Shown here: one piece after another, positions 1,641-18,971 of the stretch
How positions within the stretch are numbered: position 1 is the first letter of the stretch
How the letters are laid out: each line of letters begins with the position of its first letter
DNA from: a virus
Lineage: Duplodnaviria > Heunggongvirae > Uroviricota > Caudoviricetes
Direction: 5' to 3' (one strand)
Virus record (IMG/VR): IMGVR_UViG_2541047920_000001
Length of the DNA: 47,511 bases
Made by a program: the position numbers and the translations under genes
Notes under the pieces: generated by a model
What the model was told of the DNA's origin: nothing
What the model saw: only the letters and a program-made list of their open reading frames with translations
Databases searched by the model: none

Positions 1641-4112
1641 TTAAGAATCAGCCTGACTCGGGATCAGTTTTTGCCAGATAACTGAAACGTATTTTGCCTG
1701 GTAACGGGCGTCATCAAGTGCATTATGCCGCTCACCTTCGAATGGAATAGCCGTTCTGGCATCGAAGTCTATGGCTTTCCCCAGCTCAACGATTGTGCGT
1801 ACATCGCGATCGTTGTAGTAACGCCACGGGCAGGGGATCCCCTGCCGTTCGTATGAACGGCGCAAAATCGTGTTGTCGAAGTTGGCTCCATTTCCCCAGA
1901 CCTGAACAAAAAATTCACCGGAGTTTTCGTCGATAAATTCCCGCAATTGTAACAGTGCATCATCTAACGGGATTTCATCGGTCATAATGGCAGACTGCGC
2001 TTCACGTGATTGCTTCAGCCACCATTTAATGACGTCACGATCAATGACTCCGCCAGCAGTATTCAGATCTATGGTCTTGCTAAATTCCGGTCCCATATCT
2101 CCGGTTTGTGGATCGAAAAATATTGCGCCTATTGAGATAATCGGGGCATCAGGATTTTTTCCCATGGTTTCAAGGTCGATCATTAGATGGTCACACGTCC
2201 TGCTGGTGGATGTGATAACGTGATGACCGTTCACCGTAATTAAGGGATCTGCCGTCTCGCCAGTTTCACTATCGCTGGCGTGGTCCTGAGCGCTGCCAGC
2301 ATTCTCCTTGTGTGGATGTTCAGCGCCTTCCATTTTCTCCGAATCGTCTTCCTGAACTTCAACCTGGTTCTTGTCATCGAATGTTTCCTGGTATGTTGCG
2401 TCGCCCATCACCGCACCACATTCAGGGCAGTTGCCGCCGCCGGTCTGACCGCAGGCGGTGCAGATTTTTTCCGCTTCCTGTTGCGCTACTGGCTCAGGTT
2501 GTTTCGTTTCTGGCTCGTTTTGTAACGCATTTGGGCTGTTTTGTTCCGCTTTCTGGTCGTTCTGTTCCGTTTCTTGCTCGTTCTGGTTCACTGAATCGCG
2601 GGTTTCAATCCCCTTCACCCATTTCGGATCATTCGGATCGCTAATCCCTGCAACAAATTCACCACGTGATACAGCAAGCAACTGATTGGCGTCAGGCTGG
2701 CTGATATTGGCTGCCTGCATAATTTTGTTTACTTCGTCAGCGGTAATTTTTACCGGCTCTGGTTGTGCGGTCGTGTCAGATGCACCAGTATTTTGTTGTG
2801 AACCTGAGTATGTACCGTTTTTGCGGGCGAAATATTCTTCTTTCGTGATTTCAGTAGCCCCGGCAGCCAGCGCCTTATCCAGACCAGAAAGTTTGTTTGC
2901 GCGACCGTATTTTTCGCCATCCTTGTCGGTAAAGAGGAAGTAGAACGGCCCCTCACGCTCTACAGATGGTTCGACTTCCACTTTGCATTCAGTTTTTTCG
3001 TTGCCCGGAATTGCCGTTTCCACTGCATCAGTTTCTGGTACTGGCGACGAGAGAGTATCAGTTGCGCTCTGATTTGTTCCTTCATCTTCAAACACGCCCT
3101 TTGTAGTCAGGTATTTAGTAATGTATTTGTTCAGTGCCACAGGGTCTTTGTGAATGTCGATCGGACGTTCACGGACAAGGCCAAAAATAGTCTGGCGGTC
3201 GTAGCGAAGGGCATCAGGCTGTTTGCGCATTGATGCCGAGATACGCTTCCAGTCTTCGCGGTCGTTGTCGATAACTTCATTTTTTGCCCAGCGATGGATG
3301 CTGCCGTCAATGTTTCCGGCATCCACATCACCAGGCCAGAGAGCGTAGGCCAGTTCGTCATCCAGTGTTTTCCATGTCTGCTTGTATTCGCGATGAGTGG
3401 CAGCAATGACCGGGTTGATTTTTCCTGTTGAATTTTCAGTGTGCTGTTGATTGGCTCTGGCGCGGGCGAGATCAACAACAGACGTGTATTTTCCGGTTTC
3501 CTTGCGTTCATTTTCGCGACGTTTTTTCCAGATGCGCATCTCTGCCTGAATTTCGGGCCATTTAGCTCCAGGATTACATTTATGTTTAACCCACCCGATG
3601 GCATGCAGCTTAAGCTCCGGATACATGGCGTTAACTTCTGGCATTTTCATCAACGCTTCAACGATATGTCCGTCGAATGTTGCCATGTCTTCCTGCAACA
3701 ATTCCTGCGCGCTAATCACCATATCAACGGTGATGTTTTCACATGTGTCGAACTTAACCATGACAGCGTTCTGTACTTCAGGGGCCAGCTTGTCAAAAGT
3801 GACGTTCATCGGATCTGATTCAGTCTCAACCGGGACAAAGGAAGCAGACTCCTCATCCCAGCGGTTTTCCTGCATATATTCAGCATCCCAGGAATCGAGG
3901 GCAGGGCGGGGTATACCGGGTTTATCCTCGCAAACAAGAAATTTATAAGCGCAGTCCTGAGCAACCGGATAATGTTCCAGGAATTGCCAGTGAAATTTTG
4001 CGCGGGCGCGACGTTCATCACCGGCTTCAATGGCAGTGGCTACAGCGATTGCACCTTCTTCCTTTATTGCCTGTTCGTCCGGAATGGCGGCGCAAATAAA
4101 GACTTTACTCAT
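1641..4112 (-). CDS. Large early-region protein with C-terminal DEDDh (DnaQ/RNase T-like) 3'-5' exonuclease domain; YdfE-like
   Basis: 823-aa ORF. C-terminal about 180 aa carry exonuclease motifs (…IDLETMG…, …HNALDDARY…); central CxxC…CPxC zinc-ribbon-like motif; acidic Q/E-rich repeat region. Confidence 0.7.
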   Translation of the reverse strand: MSKVFICAAIPDEQAIKEEGAIAVATAIEAGDERRARAKFHWQFLEHYPVAQDCAYKFLVCEDKPGIPRPALDSWDAEYMQENRWDEESASFVPVETESDPMNVTFDKLAPEVQNAVMVKFDTCENITVDMVISAQELLQEDMATFDGHIVEALMKMPEVNAMYPELKLHAIGWVKHKCNPGAKWPEIQAEMRIWKKRRENERKETGKYTSVVDLARARANQQHTENSTGKINPVIAATHREYKQTWKTLDDELAYALWPGDVDAGNIDGSIHRWAKNEVIDNDREDWKRISASMRKQPDALRYDRQTIFGLVRERPIDIHKDPVALNKYITKYLTTKGVFEDEGTNQSATDTLSSPVPETDAVETAIPGNEKTECKVEVEPSVEREGPFYFLFTDKDGEKYGRANKLSGLDKALAAGATEITKEEYFARKNGTYSGSQQNTGASDTTAQPEPVKITADEVNKIMQAANISQPDANQLLAVSRGEFVAGISDPNDPKWVKGIETRDSVNQNEQETEQNDQKAEQNSPNALQNEPETKQPEPVAQQEAEKICTACGQTGGGNCPECGAVMGDATYQETFDDKNQVEVQEDDSEKMEGAEHPHKENAGSAQDHASDSETGETADPLITVNGHHVITSTSRTCDHLMIDLETMGKNPDAPIISIGAIFFDPQTGDMGPEFSKTIDLNTAGGVIDRDVIKWWLKQSREAQSAIMTDEIPLDDALLQLREFIDENSGEFFVQVWGNGANFDNTILRRSYERQGIPCPWRYYNDRDVRTIVELGKAIDFDARTAIPFEGERHNALDDARYQAKYVSVIWQKLIPSQADS

Positions 4113-4751: not shown

Positions 4752-4809
4752 AAAAACGGCGGCAGAGCAGTCACGGAGTAAAACTGATACCGCCAAACGT
4801 CACCAGAAA
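4752..4809 (-). ncRNA. dicF: DicF-like small regulatory RNA
   Basis: Minus-strand sequence UUUCUGGUGACGUUUGGCGGUAUCAGUUUUACUCCGUGACUGCUCUGCCGCC followed by a U-tract matches the DicF sRNA as I remember it; located between ydfA/B/C-like genes and dicB as in K-12. Confidence 0.7.
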
Positions 4810-6093: not shown

Positions 6094-6732
6094 TTAAATA
6101 TCTTGTTGAATTTTAAAGCATACTCCCAATATGCAAGATAGATCATCCAGCATAATTGAAGGGTAGCGAGGATTCGTGGGGACTAAAAGAATATCCGGCC
6201 CTTCTATCTCCAGTTTGCGAATGACAGGCGTTGTGGTCCCTTTGGGTAAGGCAAGGACAATATTTCCTGGTTGTACGATTCGATCGGGATCAACAAAAAC
6301 TGTTGAACCATTTGGGATGGAAACTCCACCACCAGATGTCGACATACTGTCACTCTCTAGAACAACAGCAAAGGTATTGGCCGGGATTTCTCCGACAAGC
6401 TGCACACAAGAGGTTATTGAGGAATTTTTCATATAATCACTCCAGCTTGCTGCCTGCTGAAGTGATAGTAGCGGAACCGTTTTTATCGGCGGTAAAGATA
6501 GATCAAGCGAATCACCTGTATTTAACTCTCCTCCATTAAGAAGCCAATTTTCGTTTACTTTCAATATCTTTGCCAGTGAGCTTATGTAACGCGAGGACGG
6601 CGCTCCTCCACCGTTCATCCATTGACTTACGGAGCCTTTTGATGCGCCAGTGGCATTGACAAGGTCTTTGCCTTTCAAGTTTAGCGCATGCATACGTTGG
6701 GTTATGCGTTCAGATATTGTTTGCTTGTTCAT
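6094..6732 (-). CDS. CI-like prophage repressor (HTH domain + LexA/S24-type autopeptidase domain)
   Basis: 212 aa; N-terminal HTH (…LKGKDLVNATGASKGSVSQWMNG…), C-terminal S24-like segment; divergent from a cro-like gene. Confidence 0.85.
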   Translation of the reverse strand: MNKQTISERITQRMHALNLKGKDLVNATGASKGSVSQWMNGGGAPSSRYISSLAKILKVNENWLLNGGELNTGDSLDLSLPPIKTVPLLSLQQAASWSDYMKNSSITSCVQLVGEIPANTFAVVLESDSMSTSGGGVSIPNGSTVFVDPDRIVQPGNIVLALPKGTTTPVIRKLEIEGPDILLVPTNPRYPSIMLDDLSCILGVCFKIQQDI

Positions 6733-9083: not shown

Positions 9084-9313
9084 GTACATCGGCTACCATT
9101 CTCGACATGTGCTGTGGCAGTCGCATGCTCTGGTTCGATAAGAATGACGAATGGTCGATATTTAGCGATATCAGGAAAGAGGAACATTCGCTATGTGATG
9201 GACGTCACCCGATTATTAATCCCGACATTATCGCTGATTTTCGTGCGCTGCCGTGGTTGTCTGCTTTGCATCAAAAGCAGACATTACCAGATTTAGACAT
9301 CTGTTTCCGATAG
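9080..9313 (+). CDS. Small ORF with class-I methyltransferase motif-I-like N-terminus (possible gene remnant)
   Basis: 77 aa from GTG (GGGAGG RBS); sequence …[14 protein letters not shown]… resembles a SAM-binding motif I but the ORF is far too short for a methyltransferase. Confidence 0.3.
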
Positions 9314-9366
9314 CCCGTTCTGATGCTACACTTTTTGCTATTTTCATGAACCTCATAAACACATTT

Positions 9367-10032
9367 ATGACTGTTGCTGATTTCAAACGCCCCAAATTGG
9401 AGCTCCCAAACGGGGCAAAAAAACTATTACTGCACTCTTGCTGTGCTCCATGTTCCGGTGAAGTGATGGAGGCGCTTCAGGCCTCGGGAATCGACTACAC
9501 CATCTTTTTCTACAACCCGAACATTCATCCTCAGAAAGAGTATTTAATTCGTAAGGATGAGAATATTCGCTTTGCTAAACAACACGGCGTGCCATTTATT
9601 GATGCTGATTACGACACAGACAACTGGTTTGAGCGAGCCAAAGGAATGGAATGGGAGCCTGAACGAGGGATCCGTTGTACCATGTGTTTTGACATGCGTT
9701 TTGAGCGGACTGCACTGTATGCCGCTGAAAATGGTTTCAGTGTGATCAGTAGCTCACTGGGCATTTCACGCTGGAAAAATATGCAGCAGGTTAACGACTG
9801 TGGACGGCGAGCCGTCGCGCATTATCCGGGCATGGTGTACTGGGATTATAACTGGCGAAAACAGGGCGGCTCTTCCCGCATGATTGAAATCAGCAAGCGC
9901 GAACAATTCTATCAGCAGGAATATTGTGGCTGCGTGTATTCACTGCGCGATACCAATCTACACCGCAAATCTCAGGGACGCCCTCTAATCAAAATTGGTC
10001 AACTGCACTACGGTAAGGAAGGACAGGAATGA
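9367..10032 (+). CDS. queH: QueH-like (DUF208) epoxyqueuosine reductase homologue
   Basis: N-terminal …[14 protein letters not shown]… and later …RCTMCF… and …EYCGCVYS… cysteine motifs that I recognise as the QueH/DUF208 signature; about 221 aa (alternative start 9346). Confidence 0.65.
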
Positions 10033-10644
10033 TTTTATATTATGCCAACGGAGCGTAGCAGTGTTTCTATATATAGTACGCCTACCTTAATTTTCAAATA
10101 ATCATGATTAATGAGCAGGTCATCAGTGCAAGCAATGACCTGCTCATCTTGTTGAAATTAGAGGAAATCTTGCAGCCATGATATGGCTTAAAATAACGTT
10201 TGATTATTTTACCTGCTGTTTGTCCCTGGTTTAAAGTCGGTTGTCTGATTTGATTACGCGCAACTGACGCTTACGTATTGAAGTAACGAGCACGAAGACA
10301 CATATTTATCAGTGCCTGTATACGTCAAGAGCAGGAGATTTATGTGCTGGTTCTCAAATGCACGCTGGCTATTGTGGCTGTAATGGCAATTTATTGTCTT
10401 GTTATTGTTCTTATGGATCACCTTTCTGATTGATTTCATATTGGCGAGGTAGCGGTAGTTAAGTAGAATGGCTGCGGGTGCTTGAGGCTATCTGCCTCGG
10501 GCATGAACACCAACGGCAGATAGAGAAAAGCCCCAGTTAACATTACGCGTCCTGCAAGACGCTTAACATTAATCTGAGGCCAATTTCATGCTAGACACAT
10601 GTAGGTTAGCCTCTTACGTGCCGGAAGGCAAGGAGAAGCAGGCT

Positions 10645-10800
10645 ATGAAGCAGCAAAAGGCGATGTTAATCGCCCTGATCGTCATCTGTTTAACCGTCAT
10701 AGTGACGGCACTGGTAACGAGGAAAGACCTCTGCGAGGTACGAATCCGAACCGGCCAGACGGAGGTCGCTGTCTTCACAGCTTACGAACCTGAGGAGTAA
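10645..10800 (+). CDS. hokD: Hok/Gef family membrane toxin (HokD/RelF-like)
   Basis: 51-aa product MKQQKAMLIALIVICLTVIVTALVTRKDLCEVRIRTGQTEVAVFTAYEPEE; RBS GGAGAAG; an in-frame upstream extension gives the listed ORF 10588..10800. Confidence 0.85.
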   Translation: MKQQKAMLIALIVICLTVIVTALVTRKDLCEVRIRTGQTEVAVFTAYEPEE

Positions 10801-10870
10801 GAGACTAGGCGGGGGAGAAATCCCTCGCCACCTCTGATGAGTCAGGCATCCTCAATGCACCCGCGCTTAA

Positions 10871-10889
10871 CCCGCTTCGGCGGGTTTTT
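10871..10889 (+). terminator. Rho-independent terminator downstream of hok
   Basis: CCCGC-TTCG-GCGGG hairpin followed by TTTTT. Confidence 0.7.
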
Positions 10890-10966
10890 CTAGCATCTAT
10901 CTGGTTGACAAAGTCGATGTTAAATGGAAATATGGTTGACACCAAAACAACAAGGATATTACGGTC

Positions 10967-11581
10967 ATGCAGAATTTATCTCAACAGTTGTTAGAAGCAT
11001 ATGACAAGGAGTGCCGCAAAGAGCTTTCGATCGCGTTAGCACAGGCTTATCTTCATTCGCATATGAAGGCAAAAGAGTTTGGTTCTTTTTGGGCTCAAGC
11101 ACAGTCATATTTGCGCTGGTTTTATGCCGATGCATTGCTTGAGAATGCGGCTAAGCGTGTGGGGCTGGATTTTGAAGTCGGTAGCAATGCTGCTAAAAAT
11201 TGTAAACACATTGCGATTCACTCGAACAACTGGAAAATGACGGCACATCATTTATCGGGTAATGCGCCACTTCCTAAGCAGGCATTGTATAGAGCTGTTT
11301 ACGCTAATCAAAATTATGAATTGAATTTTGGGGATGAAAATGCCGACTCCCTGGATGGGAGAGCGTCTGGTGGACATGTTTATATGTTACATGATGGCAG
11401 TAATCAGCACTTGTCCAAACTGAATTTAACTGTTCCTTCTTCGGATAATTACGGGATTCTTTATACTGAGTCTTTACCAATTATGACGATGGTAGAAGTT
11501 GAAGCAGAAAATGTGGATTCTGAGATTGAAGATAAAATCAAGATTCTTACCGAACAAATAATTAAATCACAGCAATCATGA
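10967..11581 (+). CDS. Hypothetical protein, upstream partner of the HTH-ImmA/IrrE gene (candidate effector)
   Basis: 204-aa ORF with no motif I recognise; stop overlaps the start of the next gene (ATGA), implying translational coupling; lower GC than flanks by eye. Confidence 0.6.
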   Translation: MQNLSQQLLEAYDKECRKELSIALAQAYLHSHMKAKEFGSFWAQAQSYLRWFYADALLENAAKRVGLDFEVGSNAAKNCKHIAIHSNNWKMTAHHLSGNAPLPKQALYRAVYANQNYELNFGDENADSLDGRASGGHVYMLHDGSNQHLSKLNLTVPSSDNYGILYTESLPIMTMVEVEAENVDSEIEDKIKILTEQIIKSQQS

Positions 11582-12723
11582 GCATGAATATCGCACAAAC
11601 ACCATTTACTGATAAATCGTTTAATCCTCGTCGCCTTGAGGAGGCAAGAGAGGCAAAAGGGTTGACGATGGCTGAACTTGCCAGAGTGCTCAATATTTCA
11701 AGACAAGCTATTTCGTCATTTGAGAAGGGGTTGAAGTCTCCCTCTGCTGATACACTTTCTGCAATAGCCAAGGTGTTAGGATTTCCAGAACGATTTTTCT
11801 TAGCCTCCAGTGCTTCTCCATCTCTGGAGGGGGCGATTCATTTTAGAAGTCGTTCAACTGCGACCAAAAAGGCTCGAGTTACAGGGAAAACACGTGGGCG
11901 TTGGGCGGCATTAATATTGGATGAATGTCTAAAATATGCTCAATTACCAGATGTGGTTCTGCCTGAATTCGATATTATTGATTTTGAGGTTCTGTCTCTA
12001 TCTGATATTGAGGATATGTCCACCCAATTAAGGCGTTTTTGGGGGTTAGGTGATGGTCCAATACTCAATTTAACTAGACTTGTTGAAAATAAAGGAATCG
12101 TGGTTTCTCATTTACCTTCTGGTGAGAAAGTTGATGCCTTTTCGTTCTGGCATAATGGGCGGCCTTTAATTATGTTAGATAGCTCGAAGACGGCTGTTCG
12201 CATGCGATTTAGTCTTGCTCATGAACTTGGCCATTTAATTATGCATAGGGCAGTGGAGGATGACTACCTGAATGATAAAGAATTATTCGACCTGGTGGAG
12301 TTGCAGGCCGATTATTTTGCCTCCAGCTTTTTAATGCCAGCCACCACTTTCGGGCGTGAATTTTATAGTCCAAATTTATCAGCGTTAGAACGATTAAAAC
12401 TACGTTGGATTACATCTATCGGTAGTATTGCCATGAGGAGTCATAGCCTTAAGTTAATCAGCGATAATCAGAAAAGCTATATATTTAAGCAATTAGCGCC
12501 ATTCCATCGTAGGGAGCCGTTAGATGATGCAATCCCAAAAGAAGAGCCTGAGTTACTTAATAAGTTACTTTTACTTCTTGATAAGCATTCAATCATAAAG
12601 GTAACTGAGTTAACTGATATCTTTGCTCTTCCCTTAAATGAGTTATCTGCAATTACACGATTTAAAGAATCAGATATGATTCATTCTGACAATGTTATTT
12701 CATTTACCATAAAACAAAAATAA
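11578..12723 (+). CDS. HTH-XRE DNA-binding domain fused to ImmA/IrrE-family zinc metallopeptidase (DUF955-like) with C-terminal extension
   Basis: 381 aa; N-terminal HTH (…LTMAELARVLNISRQAISSFEKG…); HEXXH motif in …SLAHELGHLIMH…; low-GC region ending in a terminator. Confidence 0.8.
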   Translation: MSMNIAQTPFTDKSFNPRRLEEAREAKGLTMAELARVLNISRQAISSFEKGLKSPSADTLSAIAKVLGFPERFFLASSASPSLEGAIHFRSRSTATKKARVTGKTRGRWAALILDECLKYAQLPDVVLPEFDIIDFEVLSLSDIEDMSTQLRRFWGLGDGPILNLTRLVENKGIVVSHLPSGEKVDAFSFWHNGRPLIMLDSSKTAVRMRFSLAHELGHLIMHRAVEDDYLNDKELFDLVELQADYFASSFLMPATTFGREFYSPNLSALERLKLRWITSIGSIAMRSHSLKLISDNQKSYIFKQLAPFHRREPLDDAIPKEEPELLNKLLLLLDKHSIIKVTELTDIFALPLNELSAITRFKESDMIHSDNVISFTIKQK

Positions 12724-12735
12724 TTCTCATTCATA

Positions 12736-12755
12736 CCCGCCTCGGCGGGTTTTTG
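12736..12755 (+). terminator. Rho-independent terminator after the two-gene cassette
   Basis: CCCGCC-TC-GGCGGG hairpin plus TTTTTG. Confidence 0.7.
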
Positions 12756-12829
12756 TTTTACGTATTCTGGTTTACAATCCACAGGCCAGCCTGAACAACT
12801 GGCACCTGCTGCGCCAGCAGAGACAACCG

Positions 12830-15057: not shown

Positions 15058-15600
15058 TGCTTTAAATGGGGCAATAGAGATATTGAATCTCATCCCGGGA
15101 TAAACATTGGGAGTTGAAGGTCCACGCGAACCATTTATCCGGCAAAATTCCACGCGTAATCCTGTGGTAATTTCTTCTGCATCTCGAAGATTGAGAGCTG
15201 AAACGTGAAGCTGGGCATCGATACGCCATCGGATGGGAATATAAGACCTTTGCTGCTTTTGTAGTCAAAGTTTTTGACAATTCCTGTCATTTTAGGGGAC
15301 AGAAAAACTCCTTAATACTGATAACCTGGTGCACCATACACACGTTCCTGGAGAAAACTACTTTGTTGATAGGGTTGAAGGTGGCTGGATGTCTAAAATA
15401 AACATTGCTTCATATGTTCAACTATGAGTTAATGACTGCGTCGGTTTGAAGAACAGACGATATACGAAGTAGTTTACTAAAGCAGTTCTCATTTCAGGTG
15501 TTATTCACTTATTCCTTCTTTGAGTCTCTCCAATTAAGTACGAAGTCGTTTCTGTTATGCAAACCATTTATGCCGAAAGGCTCAAGTTAAGGAATGTAGA

Positions 15601-15816
15601 ATGTCAAATAAAATGACTGGTTTAGTAAAATGGTTTAACGCTGATAAAGGTTTCGGCTTTATTTCTCCTGTTGATGGTAGTAAAGATGTGTTTGTGCATT
15701 TTTCTGCGATTCAGAATGATAATTATCGAACCTTATTTGAAGGTCAAAAGGTTACCTTCTCTATAGAGAGTGGTGCTAAAGGTCCTGCAGCAGTAAATGT
15801 CATCATTACTGATTAA
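15601..15816 (+). CDS. cspB: Cold-shock protein, CspA family (CspB-like)
   Basis: 71-aa product [23 protein letters not shown]… with RNP1-like KGFGFI and VFVHF motifs; long 5' leader. Confidence 0.85.
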
Positions 15817-16097
15817 AATTCATCGCTCGTCTGTATACGATAACGAAGAAGGCTGATGCCTGAGTAGAGATACGGACAGAGTAGTGAATATTGGATCTCT
15901 TTAATAAAAAGTAAGGAGGTCCAATACATGAAACAATGGCCAGCATATTTGGCAAAATCTTAATCAGGAAAAGTATGCTAACCATTGTGGTGAAGTGCAG
16001 GTTTGCTGCATGAATAGTTTTACAGCAGAAGCTAACTGCTGGCATGGCAAAACAAAGTGCGTAAGTGGATGACTCCCACAAAAAGCACCACAATCTC

Positions 16098-18125: not shown

Positions 18126-18487
18126 GGTAATATTAAATCGGAACATTTACATCGCGGAATGTAAAATTTAAATAAAAAGGACTCTTCCATGAGCCAAAAT
18201 TCCTGAAATCTTAAGGGTAAGATAAAAGGTCTTAATCAGAATGACACGTTTTATTAATAAATAAAGCTATTCTTTCATTGCTGTGTTTTTCTTTACAAAA
18301 GTAATCCTTGCTATGGGTGGTTAATCATGCGTTAATGGTGTTCTGGTTTGTTACAAATTTATCTGAAGCAGTCATTGTTATAATTTTATTATTTGTACCT
18401 CTTGAGATTTCCTTGTTGGTTTTTCTCTCTGATATTTTTTTTCGGACCATTCTGCCCAAGGGCTAATTTCTTCAAAAGGTAATAATT

Positions 18488-18700
18488 ATGTCTAACAAAA
18501 TGACTGGTTTAGTGAAATGGTTTAACCCTGAAAAAGGTTTTGGTTTCATCACGCCGAAAGATGGCAGCAAAGATGTGTTTGTCCATTTCTCAGCAATTCA
18601 GAGCAACGATTTCAAAACATTAACTGAGAATCAGGAAGTTGAATTTGGTATTGAGAACGGACCTAAAGGTCCTGCCGCTGTTCATGTAGTGGCGCTTTGA
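18488..18700 (+). CDS. cspI: Cold-shock protein, CspA family (CspI-like)
   Basis: 70-aa product [39 protein letters not shown]…; long AT-rich leader. Confidence 0.85.
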
Positions 18701-18971
18701 GGTAGACAATATTACAAACCATATTCACTTTAGATGCCCGTGTTGTCATGGTTCCCAGTATAGAACATCATCTTTTGATGTTTCTGACATGAATCCTTTC
18801 GGGGCAAAATGTATCTTTTGTAAATCAATGATGATTACATTTGATAATATTTCACAATACTTAAATGCCAGCCGTCTGTCGTTGGATTTAAAAAAGTGAA
18901 AATGAAGGCTCCTTCGGGAGCTTTTTTGCTTGGTATCTATTCGATGGATACTCACATACTACGGTAACATC

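What the first reader, a model, noticed from the sequence alone, without database searches (positions are those of the whole stretch)
10967..12766. Low-GC two-gene cassette: unknown protein coupled to an HTH-XRE/ImmA-IrrE metallopeptidase fusion, in the slot where Qin carries relBE
Seen: a 204-aa ORF whose stop overlaps (ATGA) the start of a 381-aa ORF with an N-terminal XRE-type HTH and a HEXXH zinc-peptidase motif (SLAHELGHLIMH); the pair is visibly more AT-rich than its flanks and is bracketed by rho-independent terminators (10871-10889 and 12736-12755). It lies between hok and the rem/ydfU-like genes, where K-12 Qin as I recall it has relBE-hokD. Established: ImmA/IrrE-type peptidases fused to XRE HTH domains act as sensors/antitoxins that cleave or control a partner, and such pairs recur in defence islands and prophage moron slots. 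Inference: this is a toxin-antitoxin or abortive-infection-like module whose effector is the uncharacterised 204-aa protein. This is the strongest candidate for an undescribed system in the window.
Basis: partly seen in the sequence, partly recalled or inferred. Interest (0 to 1): 0.8.

Follow-up and report, generated by a model that had tools for sequence, protein, structure and literature searches.

The report
RosmerTA-type toxin–antitoxin prophage moron
This two-gene cassette in an E. coli lambdoid prophage is an untested member of the already described RosmerTA toxin–antitoxin/anti-phage family, so it is a real defence-type module but not a new kind of system.

The parts
10902..10941 (+). 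Cassette promoter/operator block. It has two invariant TGGTTGACA boxes (10902-10910 and 10933-10941) 31 bp apart. The first holds a consensus -35 TTGACA (10905-10910), followed by a 17-bp spacer with an extended -10 TG (10925-10926) and then AAATAT (10928-10933).
   Evidence: Conservation starts exactly here in six loci whose left flanks are unrelated. The same boxes lie at -65/-34 in 7 loci, and degenerate GTTGAC-type pairs occur in more distant loci. The consensus scan did not list it because the -10 matches only 3 of 6. The promoter and operator roles are inferred.
10967..11581 (+). rmrT-like toxin gene (204 aa; RefSeq WP_001180546.1, annotated as a hypothetical protein).
11578..12723 (+). 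rmrA-like antitoxin gene (381 aa; WP_000062344.1). XRE HTH at nt 11629-11796, M78 Zn-peptidase at nt 12085-12438 with HELGH at 12220-12234, and a conserved C-terminal region.
   Evidence: PADLOC RmrA PDLC03947 E 5.5e-102, residues 11-380 aligned to 7-381 of 383. Pfam HTH_3 plus Peptidase_M78. 31% identity over 354 aa to the verified OLC-716 RmrA, E 4e-41.
12735..12760 (+). Intrinsic terminator of the cassette (stem 12735-12750 plus T-run).
   Evidence: Found by the terminator scan. Folds at -12.1 kcal/mol, z -3.76. A hairpin plus T-run follows the rmrA stop in 5 of 6 divergent loci.
10870..10913 (.). Left copy of the ~45-bp imperfect direct repeat that bounds the insertion: the hok terminator hairpin ACCCGCTTCGGCGGGTTTTT, a spacer, then TCTGGTTGACAA.
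   Evidence: Junction alignment with the empty site of E. coli E24377A.
12735..12779 (.). Right copy of the bounding repeat: the rmrA terminator ACCCGCCTCGGCGGGTTTTT, a spacer, then TCTGGTTTACAA (the rem-side promoter region).
   Evidence: The empty site has one copy, and the two window copies lie 1,865 bp apart.

Best explanation
The cassette is a RosmerTA-family toxin-antitoxin module carried as an autonomously expressed moron of a Tritos/Qin-like lambdoid prophage.

Shown:
- The two genes are translationally coupled and have their own conserved promoter block and terminator.
- The downstream protein is a full-length RmrA (XRE HTH plus intact M78 Zn-peptidase plus C-terminal region).
- The upstream protein belongs to a modelled RmrT clade.
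- The pair is inherited as a unit across unrelated mobile elements.
- It is transcribed in the lysogen.

Inferred from the family:
- RmrT is toxic when free. RmrA keeps it harmless, probably with help from ClpX/ClpP.
- The RmrA HTH represses the operon by binding the two GTTGACA boxes that bracket the -10 region.
- Infection by certain phages disturbs this balance, and the freed toxin arrests or kills the cell before the phage completes its cycle. The spectrum is probably narrow.

Inferred from the model:
- The toxin has a restriction-endonuclease-like alpha-beta-beta-beta-alpha-beta core.
- Its conserved residues (H81 at the start of beta-2, T92 and H94 in beta-3, plus N74, N78, R104, R109, N116 and H142) sit where such enzymes place D...(D/E)xK.
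- My best guess is therefore a nucleic-acid-directed activity with non-canonical chemistry, or binding to a nucleic-acid-associated target. Membrane damage is less likely.
For: RmrA identity.

RmrT clade membership.

Linkage: 27 of 27 loci have an adjacent RmrA. Toxin/antitoxin identities co-vary: 100/100, 93/88, 73/83, 65/70, 53/66, 39/44, 33/46. A 22%-identity relative keeps the arrangement, as does another.

Contexts:
- next to cI in a Yersinia prophage
- the nin region of a lambdoid prophage
- after a primase
- between the head protease and the terminase
- a defence island with SduA_C, Peptidase_U49, MC6/CTD10/DUF2326 and DUF2971
.

Moron anatomy and empty site.

Expression in the LF82 lysogen: 30x and 14x above the prophage background (PMC9928086).

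Family-level experiments:
- The OLC-716 system defends, and a delta-rmrA mutant could not be obtained.
- Vmi480 is lethal and Vmi470 neutralises it.
- RipA/RipB depend on ClpX.
- The E101 module makes clpP essential.
- rmrA and clpX are essential only in the Pectobacteriaceae strains that carry RosmerTA.
- Phage Kita RmrTA defends against Bas54 and Bas59 according to the paper's main text; its Fig. 5E legend names Bas54 and Bas60 instead.

Toxin fold and residues.
Against: - No experiment exists for this toxin clade, as far as I could find.
- The verified OLC-716 RmrT belongs to another clade with no detectable similarity.
- RmrT toxins are heterogeneous. One depolarises membranes and another targets DnaN, so function cannot be transferred between clades.
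- The toxin's own PADLOC hit is partial, covering about half of the profile.
- The canonical nuclease residues are absent.
- Tested RosmerTA homologues in S. thermophilus were weak or narrow.
- The operator role of the repeated boxes is inferred from conservation alone.
Confidence: 0.8

Rival explanations
1. It is an addiction or stabilisation TA module whose main role is to keep the prophage, or to modulate host physiology, with no meaningful anti-phage activity. The neighbouring hok/sok locus would be a parallel.
For: It sits directly beside hok/sok. RipAB of S. pneumoniae has a physiological role in competence induction. RosmerTA homologues tested in S. thermophilus were inefficient against most phages. 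Vmi480/470 was described simply as a TA pair on a genomic island.
Against: The cassette also occurs in a chromosomal defence island beside Shedu-like, Lit-like and Abi-type genes. It also occurs in the cI-adjacent exclusion slot. Two RosmerTA systems with different toxins do defend. The two roles are not mutually exclusive.
Confidence: 0.15
2. It has reversed polarity, as in PD-lambda-2. The Xre-peptidase fusion would be the toxic or effector component, and the small upstream protein would be its inhibitor.
For: In PD-lambda-2 the Xre-peptidase (B) alone is toxic and the upstream protein (A) rescues it. The 381-aa protein has a weak PADLOC hit to PD-Lambda-2_B (E 0.002).
Against: The RmrA match is about 100 orders of magnitude stronger and full length. 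The upstream protein is not HigB-like and has no PD-Lambda-2_A hit. There is no third gene, because a terminator follows at once. In verified relatives the peptidase gene is the one that cannot be deleted and the upstream gene is the lethal one.
Confidence: 0.04
3. It is an ImmA/ImmR- or IrrE/DdrO-type antirepressor that controls prophage induction, and the 204-aa gene is an unrelated neighbour.
For: The M78 domain is homologous to ImmA, IrrE and CapP.
Against: Linkage to the 204-aa gene is strict across elements with unrelated regulatory modules. The prophage has its own S24 (LexA/cI-type) repressor at 6094-6732. The cassette is missing from the same junction in most related prophages: 41 of 5,426 genomes carry it, while 4,749 match the flanks. 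HTH and peptidase are fused, and the unit has its own promoter and terminator.
Confidence: 0.01

Closest known systems
RosmerTA (RmrT/RmrA), verified system of E. coli OLC-716 (Millman et al. 2022)
   Same: Two co-oriented genes, toxin first. The antitoxin has an XRE HTH, an M78 Zn-peptidase and a C-terminal region, and is 31% identical over 354 aa. Both match RmrA profiles full length.
   Different: The toxins are unrelated. OLC-716 RmrT (239 aa) matches PDLC03935 and PDLC03932. The window toxin matches PDLC03933, 34, 37 and 40. Profile-profile probability is 0.1%. The window's cassette is untested.
Vmi480/Vmi470 of Vibrio mimicus MGIVmi1 (Luo et al. 2015) and the E. coli E101 prophage module (Rousset et al.)
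   Same: A toxin of about 200 aa with no known domain comes first, followed by an HTH-Zn-peptidase antitoxin of about 360-380 aa, on a mobile element. The toxin is lethal in E. coli and is neutralised by its partner. The E101 module is prophage-borne and makes clpP essential.
   Different: I could not obtain the sequences, so whether these toxins belong to the window's RmrT clade is unknown.
RipA/RipB (Spr1630/Spr1629) of Streptococcus pneumoniae
   Same: A Rosmer-type pair. The antitoxin family model NF052239 aligns full length with the window's RmrA (187 bits, E 4.8e-55). The antitoxin is essential only when the toxin is present.
   Different: The score is below the equivalog cut-off of 335. 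RipA acts on the DnaN sliding clamp and needs ClpX for neutralisation. I could not test any relation of RipA to the window toxin.
RmrTA of Gordonia phage Kita (Ernits et al. 2023)
   Same: A phage-borne RosmerTA with an ImmA-type antitoxin and narrow anti-phage activity.
   Different: The Kita toxin has a membrane-associated C-terminus and depolarises the membrane. In the AF2 model the window toxin folds as one globular domain, and I saw no hydrophobic transmembrane-like stretch on reading its sequence; no TM predictor was run.
PD-lambda-2 (Vassallo et al. 2022)
   Same: An Xre-peptidase fusion downstream of a small toxin-like gene, found in the E. coli mobilome.
   Different: It has three genes: a HigB-like first gene, the peptidase fusion as the toxic part, and a required third component. 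None of these holds here.
ImmA/ImmR (ICEBs1), IrrE/DdrO, CapP/CapH
   Same: An M78 peptidase working with an XRE HTH, and a homologous catalytic domain.
   Different: In those systems the peptidase and the HTH repressor are separate proteins that regulate an element or an operon (an integrase, DNA repair genes, CBASS). Here they are fused and tied to a toxin gene, with no such regulon nearby.

Membership tests
RosmerTA | The antitoxin RmrA has an N-terminal XRE-type HTH fused to an M78 (ImmA/IrrE) Zn-peptidase and matches an RmrA profile full length. | tested here: met
   PDLC03947 E 5.5e-102, residues 11-380 on profile 7-381 of 383; 14 RmrA models hit. Pfam HTH_3 plus Peptidase_M78.
RosmerTA | Intact metallopeptidase site: HEXXH plus the downstream E...A(D/N)xFAxxFLMP motif. 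| tested here: met
   H215ELGH219 and ELQADYFASSFLMP align with the verified RmrA.
RosmerTA | An adjacent, co-oriented partner gene that forms one operon with rmrA. | tested here: met
   ATGA overlap. An adjacent RmrA is present in 27 of 27 loci with downstream DNA. Shared promoter block and terminator.
RosmerTA | The partner matches an RmrT toxin profile. | tested here: met
   Its own hits are partial and moderate: PDLC03933 E 7.5e-10 over residues 47-161, and PDLC03934 E 6e-8. All 47 relatives hit PDLC03933, best 1.8e-53. I did not run the PADLOC or DefenseFinder system rules themselves.
RosmerTA | RmrT is toxic and RmrA neutralises it (rmrA cannot be deleted). | not testable with these tools
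   Known only for other members.
RosmerTA | It protects against phage infection. | not testable with these tools
   Shown for OLC-716 and for phage Kita. I found no data for this cassette.
PD-(D/E)XK (restriction-endonuclease-like) nucleases, for the toxin | An alpha-beta-beta-beta-alpha-beta core fold. | tested here: inconclusive
PD-(D/E)XK (restriction-endonuclease-like) nucleases, for the toxin | The catalytic D ... (D/E)xK residues in beta-2 and beta-3. | tested here: not met
   The family conserves H81, T92 and H94(S) instead, and has no conserved acidic or Lys residue in these strands.
PD-lambda-2 | Three genes: a HigB-like protein, an Xre-peptidase and a P4-antitoxin-like protein. | tested here: not met
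   The upstream protein has no HigB or PD-Lambda-2_A hit. A terminator follows gene 2. The hit to PD-Lambda-2_B is only E 0.002.
ImmA/ImmR-type antirepressor module | A separate peptidase and cognate HTH repressor that control an element's integrase or lytic genes. | tested here: not met
   HTH and peptidase are fused. The prophage has its own S24 repressor. The cassette is dispensable for related prophages.
spr1629 (RipB) equivalog, NCBIfam NF052239 | A score above the curated cut-off of 335 bits. | tested here: not met
   187 bits. Partners of other clade members score 203-234 bits. This makes it a relative, not an equivalog.

The most novel reading that the evidence does not exclude
The RmrT clade to which the 204-aa protein belongs may be a previously unrecognised derivative of the restriction-endonuclease fold. 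In it the D/(D/E)xK triad is replaced by a His/Thr/His-Asn-Arg constellation. It would act either as a metal-independent nuclease or as a non-catalytic binder of a replication or nucleic-acid target. RmrA, together with ClpXP, would hold it in check. If so, the shared logic of RosmerTA would be a protease-antitoxin plus host-unfoldase checkpoint that phages trip.
Probability: 0.3. Interest if true: 0.5.

Novelty: new member of a known kind. Interest (0 to 1): 0.3.

Why it matters
RosmerTA is widespread, but its mechanism is poorly understood. The toxins are heterogeneous, and the roles of the peptidase and of ClpXP are unclear. This cassette is compact, naturally expressed and native to E. coli. 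It is present in the well-studied strain LF82 and in the isolated phage Tritos. It therefore offers a convenient model for one untested toxin clade, with concrete residues and operator boxes to mutate. For genome annotation, two proteins now named 'hypothetical protein' and 'ImmA/IrrE family metallo-endopeptidase' on more than 1,000 contigs could be renamed as a RosmerTA pair.

Tried and rejected
- The first AlphaFold run used only close homologues (9 sequences) and gave pLDDT 38, so I discarded it.
- The afdb50 fold library was unavailable.
- Foldseek against PDB and BFVD gave no significant hits. hmmsearch of both toxin profiles against PDB sequences gave nothing.
- Pfam and NCBIfam on all 47 family members gave no family.
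- The scan of species-representative genomes failed with A2 because no stretch was conserved enough, and found no relatives with A6.
- tblastn of the toxin found only phage Tritos among 50,697 phage records and nothing in 72,556 plasmids.
- I could not place RipA (Spr1630), Vmi480 or the E101 toxin (WP_001179380.1) relative to the window's clade. No sequences were obtainable, Piotrowski 2009 is not held, and cluster look-ups did not show the accessions.
- The indirect test through NF052239 scores did not discriminate.
- The LF82 CRISPRi preprint and its supplement say nothing on LF82_280/281 or on clpX/clpP essentiality.
- Millman's supplementary tables do not mention LF82 or the IMG genomes that carry this cassette; several of those tables were truncated when stored.
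- I considered and rejected an antirepressor reading, PD-lambda-2 membership and CapH/CapP membership (see the membership tests).
Full report
OBSERVATION

The window holds two + strand ORFs: 10967..11581 (204 aa) and 11578..12723 (381 aa). The stop of the first overlaps the start of the second in ATGA.

The 381-aa protein has Pfam HTH_3 at residues 20-73 and Peptidase_M78 at residues 170-287. It has an intact HELGH at 215-219 and the downstream M78 motif ELQADYFASSFLMP. The 204-aa protein has no Pfam or NCBIfam match.

The cassette's GC is 0.400, against 0.487 for the window and 0.459 and 0.549 for the flanks. GC3 is 0.33-0.37, against 0.48-0.55 in neighbouring genes. About 8% of same-size windows are as AT-rich, mostly the csp region.

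The downstream terminator (12735-12750 plus T-run) is found by the scan and folds well. The upstream hairpin (10869-10886) also folds well, but it is the terminator of the hok/sok locus. Rfam places sok at 10476-10650, and hokD is at 10645-10800.

In Qin the order is relB-relE-hokD-rem-ydfU-Q. Here the cassette lies between hokD and a rem-like 92-aa gene, not at the relBE position.

WHAT IT IS

PADLOC profiles identify the 381-aa protein as RmrA. The match is full length (E 5.5e-102, residues 11-380 on 7-381 of 383), and 14 RmrA models are hit. The same profiles give the 204-aa protein partial hits to RmrT models: PDLC03933 at E 7.5e-10 and PDLC03934 at E 6e-8.

RmrT/RmrA is the RosmerTA system of Millman et al. 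[quoted passage not shown] It was verified with a system from E. coli OLC-716, and a delta-rmrA mutant could not be obtained.

The window's RmrA is 31% identical over 354 residues to the verified RmrA (E 4e-41). The two toxins are unrelated. BLASTP finds nothing. The verified toxin matches different PADLOC models, PDLC03935 and PDLC03932. Profile-profile probability is 0.1%. This fits the literature, which describes RmrA as a hub antitoxin paired with many different toxins (Ernits et al. 2023).

To place the toxin, I searched 5.8 billion clustered proteins. I found only 10 clusters, at 64-92% identity, in Salmonella, Yersinia and unnamed assemblies. An exhaustive HMM search with their alignment then found 78 representatives of 200-220 aa. 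I took 46 full-length ones. All 47 sequences, the window's included, hit RmrT model PDLC03933 (best 1.8e-53), and many also hit PDLC03940, 38, 34 and 37. The 204-aa protein is therefore a divergent branch of an RmrT clade that the defence-system databases already model. It is not a new partner. The clade has no Pfam, NCBIfam or PDB relative by sequence.

LINKAGE AND CONTEXT

I gathered loci from assemblies, IMG/VR and annotated genomes. In every locus that has the toxin gene and enough downstream DNA (27 of 27), an RmrA homologue starts at or within a few bases of the toxin's stop. Toxin and antitoxin identities fall together: 100/100, 93/88, 73/83, 72/80, 65/70, 53/66, 51/63, 39/44, 33/46. 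Relatives at about 20% identity keep the arrangement.

The surrounding genes are unrelated from locus to locus:
- directly after the cI-type repressor of a Yersinia lambdoid prophage
- after a DUF927 primase
- in a lambdoid nin region
- between the head protease and the terminase of another phage, on the opposite strand
- beside a Bro-N gene and a giant PBECR1/LPD3 protein
- in a defence island with SduA_C (Shedu-like), Peptidase_U49 (Lit-like), MC6/CTD10/DUF2326 and DUF2971 genes
.

This pattern is typical of a mobile defence or TA cassette. It excludes the idea that the neighbour is unrelated.

CASSETTE ANATOMY

Upstream of the toxin gene, six loci with unrelated left flanks become alignable exactly at window 10902. 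The shared block is TGGTTGACAAA ... AAATG-n-AAA ... TGGTTGACA, with two invariant TGGTTGACA boxes 31 bp apart.

The first box contains a consensus -35 TTGACA. Seventeen bases further on lies an extended -10 (TG-n-AAATAT). The second box would lie near the transcription start. The boxes are at -65/-34 in seven loci, down to 53% toxin identity. Degenerate GTTGAC-type pairs bracket a -10-like box in more distant loci.

I read this as the cassette's own promoter with a candidate operator for the RmrA HTH. This is an inference: the consensus scan did not list the promoter.

After the rmrA stop, 5 of 6 divergent loci have a GC-rich hairpin and a T-run.

In E. coli, 4,749 of 5,426 complete genomes match the flanks, but only 41 carry the cassette. 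Another 46 have partial or diverged matches.

The empty site in strain E24377A has a single hairpin-plus-TCTGGTTTACAA element. In the window this element occurs on both sides of a 1,865-bp insert, at 10870-10913 and 12735-12779. The unit therefore has the promoter, genes and terminator of a classic moron.

The same DNA is 99.9% identical in phage Tritos, a prophage of strain LF82. Published RNA-seq of the LF82 lysogen lists both genes among the morons, at 30x and 14x above the prophage background (PMC9928086).

The window itself is a complete lambdoid prophage. It has an integrase, DicF, an S24 repressor, replication genes, QueH, hok/sok, this cassette, DUF968, Q, csp genes, lysis genes and structural genes.

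HOW IT PROBABLY WORKS

At the family level there is experimental support for three points:
- The upstream gene is lethal and the HTH-peptidase neutralises it. This was shown for Vmi480/470, for RipA/RipB including in trans, and is suggested by rmrA being undeletable or essential.
- Neutralisation is tied to ClpX or ClpP. Spr1630 makes clpX essential, the E101 prophage module makes clpP essential and transfers that trait to K-12, and clpX is essential only in the Pectobacteriaceae strains that carry RosmerTA.
- Some members protect against a narrow set of phages.

I therefore propose the following. RmrA represses the operon through its HTH and, with ClpXP, keeps RmrT inactive. A phage-induced disturbance frees RmrT, which then stops the cell. 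None of this has been tested for the present clade.

For the toxin itself, a first AlphaFold model from close homologues failed (pLDDT 38). A model built from the 47-sequence alignment is confident (pLDDT 86, pTM 0.82). It shows a long N-terminal helical hairpin, then beta-beta-beta-alpha-beta-beta-beta, then a C-terminal helix.

The clade's conserved residues are N74, N78, H81, T92, H94(S), R104, R109, N116, H142 and E181. By secondary-structure position, H81 at the start of beta-2 and T92-x-H94 in beta-3 occupy the places of D and (D/E)xK. No structural superposition was available to confirm this. No acidic or lysine residue is conserved in those strands.

The fold assignment is therefore tentative, and canonical nuclease chemistry is not supported. 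The options are a non-canonical nucleic-acid-directed activity or a binding role. In the AF2 model the protein folds as one globular domain, and I saw no hydrophobic transmembrane-like stretch on reading its sequence; no TM predictor was run. This differs from the membrane-depolarising Kita toxin.

A conserved acidic motif, E181-x-I-x-(D/E)-E, lies after the core. It is a candidate docking or cleavage site for RmrA. This is speculation.

COMPARISON AND NOVELTY

The pair meets every testable defining feature of RosmerTA (see the membership table). It fails the tests for PD-lambda-2, for ImmA/ImmR-type antirepressors and for the spr1629 equivalog. The toxin fails the catalytic-motif test for PD-(D/E)XK nucleases.

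No held paper mentions the two RefSeq proteins (WP_001180546.1 and WP_000062344.1). No held paper reports a RosmerTA call in LF82. Databases call them 'hypothetical protein' and 'ImmA/IrrE family metallo-endopeptidase' or 'helix-turn-helix domain-containing protein'.

I could not determine whether RipA, Vmi480 or the E101 toxin belong to this same clade. If one does, the mechanism would be partly known already.

VERDICT

The functional interpretation is right in kind. The claim of an undescribed system is not supported. The cassette is an untested member, with a divergent toxin branch, of a known and widespread family. Interest is modest (0.3). Its value lies in being a tractable native E. coli model for an unstudied RmrT clade and for the unresolved RmrA/ClpXP mechanism.

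Noticed in passing
window 10902-10941; also L003, L005, L007, L008, L023, L026 at the same offsets: An invariant direct repeat, TGGTTGACA twice and 31 bp apart, lies upstream of the toxin gene and brackets a -10-like box. Conservation begins exactly where the unrelated flanks end. Degenerate GTTGAC-type pairs occur in relatives at 22-39% toxin identity. It is a candidate operator for the RmrA HTH.
   Followed up: partly
window 10870-10913 and 12735-12779; empty site L010:600-660: The 1,865-bp cassette is bounded by a ~45-bp imperfect direct repeat made of a terminator hairpin plus TCTGGTT(G/T)ACAA. The empty site has the element once. This suggests insertion or exchange by recombination at terminator/promoter sequences shared between morons.
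   Followed up: yes
window 10476-10800: A hok/sok (hokD) type I TA locus lies directly upstream, so two TA modules sit in tandem. In LF82, hokD is listed at 3,792x above the prophage background.
   Followed up: partly
window 9253-10032: A QueH (epoxyqueuosine reductase) homologue lies in the early region of the prophage (Pfam E 2.7e-65). Phage Tritos has a different gene at this place, a 1,335-bp hypothetical gene on the opposite strand. It may be another moron related to queuosine or 7-deazaguanine.
   Followed up: no
window 4757-4808 (-), 15440-15863 (+), 18342-18727 (+): Rfam finds DicF RNA and two cspA-type thermoregulator leaders, upstream of cspB- and cspI-like genes. The csp region near 18 kb has the lowest GC in the window (0.345).
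   Followed up: no
L008:1-9330: A 73%-identical copy of the cassette sits in a defence island. The island has MC6/CTD10/DUF2326 genes, an SduA_C (Shedu-like) gene, an HTH gene, a Peptidase_U49 (Lit-like) gene and a DUF2971 gene.
   Followed up: no
L030:3844-8960: A 39%-identical toxin with its RmrA is inserted on the opposite strand between the head protease and the large terminase of a lambda-like morphogenesis module. This is an unusual place for a moron.
   Followed up: no
window 11507-11524 (toxin residues 181-186): The acidic motif E181-x-I-x-(D/E)-E after the folded core is conserved across the whole RmrT clade (E181 in 43 of 47 sequences). It may be a contact or cleavage site for RmrA, or a degron.
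   Followed up: no
loci: At intermediate distances the antitoxin is more conserved than its toxin (for example 83% against 73%, 66% against 53% and 46% against 33%). The toxin therefore evolves faster.
   Followed up: partly
window 1641-4112 (-): An 823-aa ORF whose only recognised domain is a C-terminal Rv2179c-like 3'-5' exoribonuclease (E 5.9e-66). The N-terminal ~640 residues have no Pfam match.
   Followed up: no
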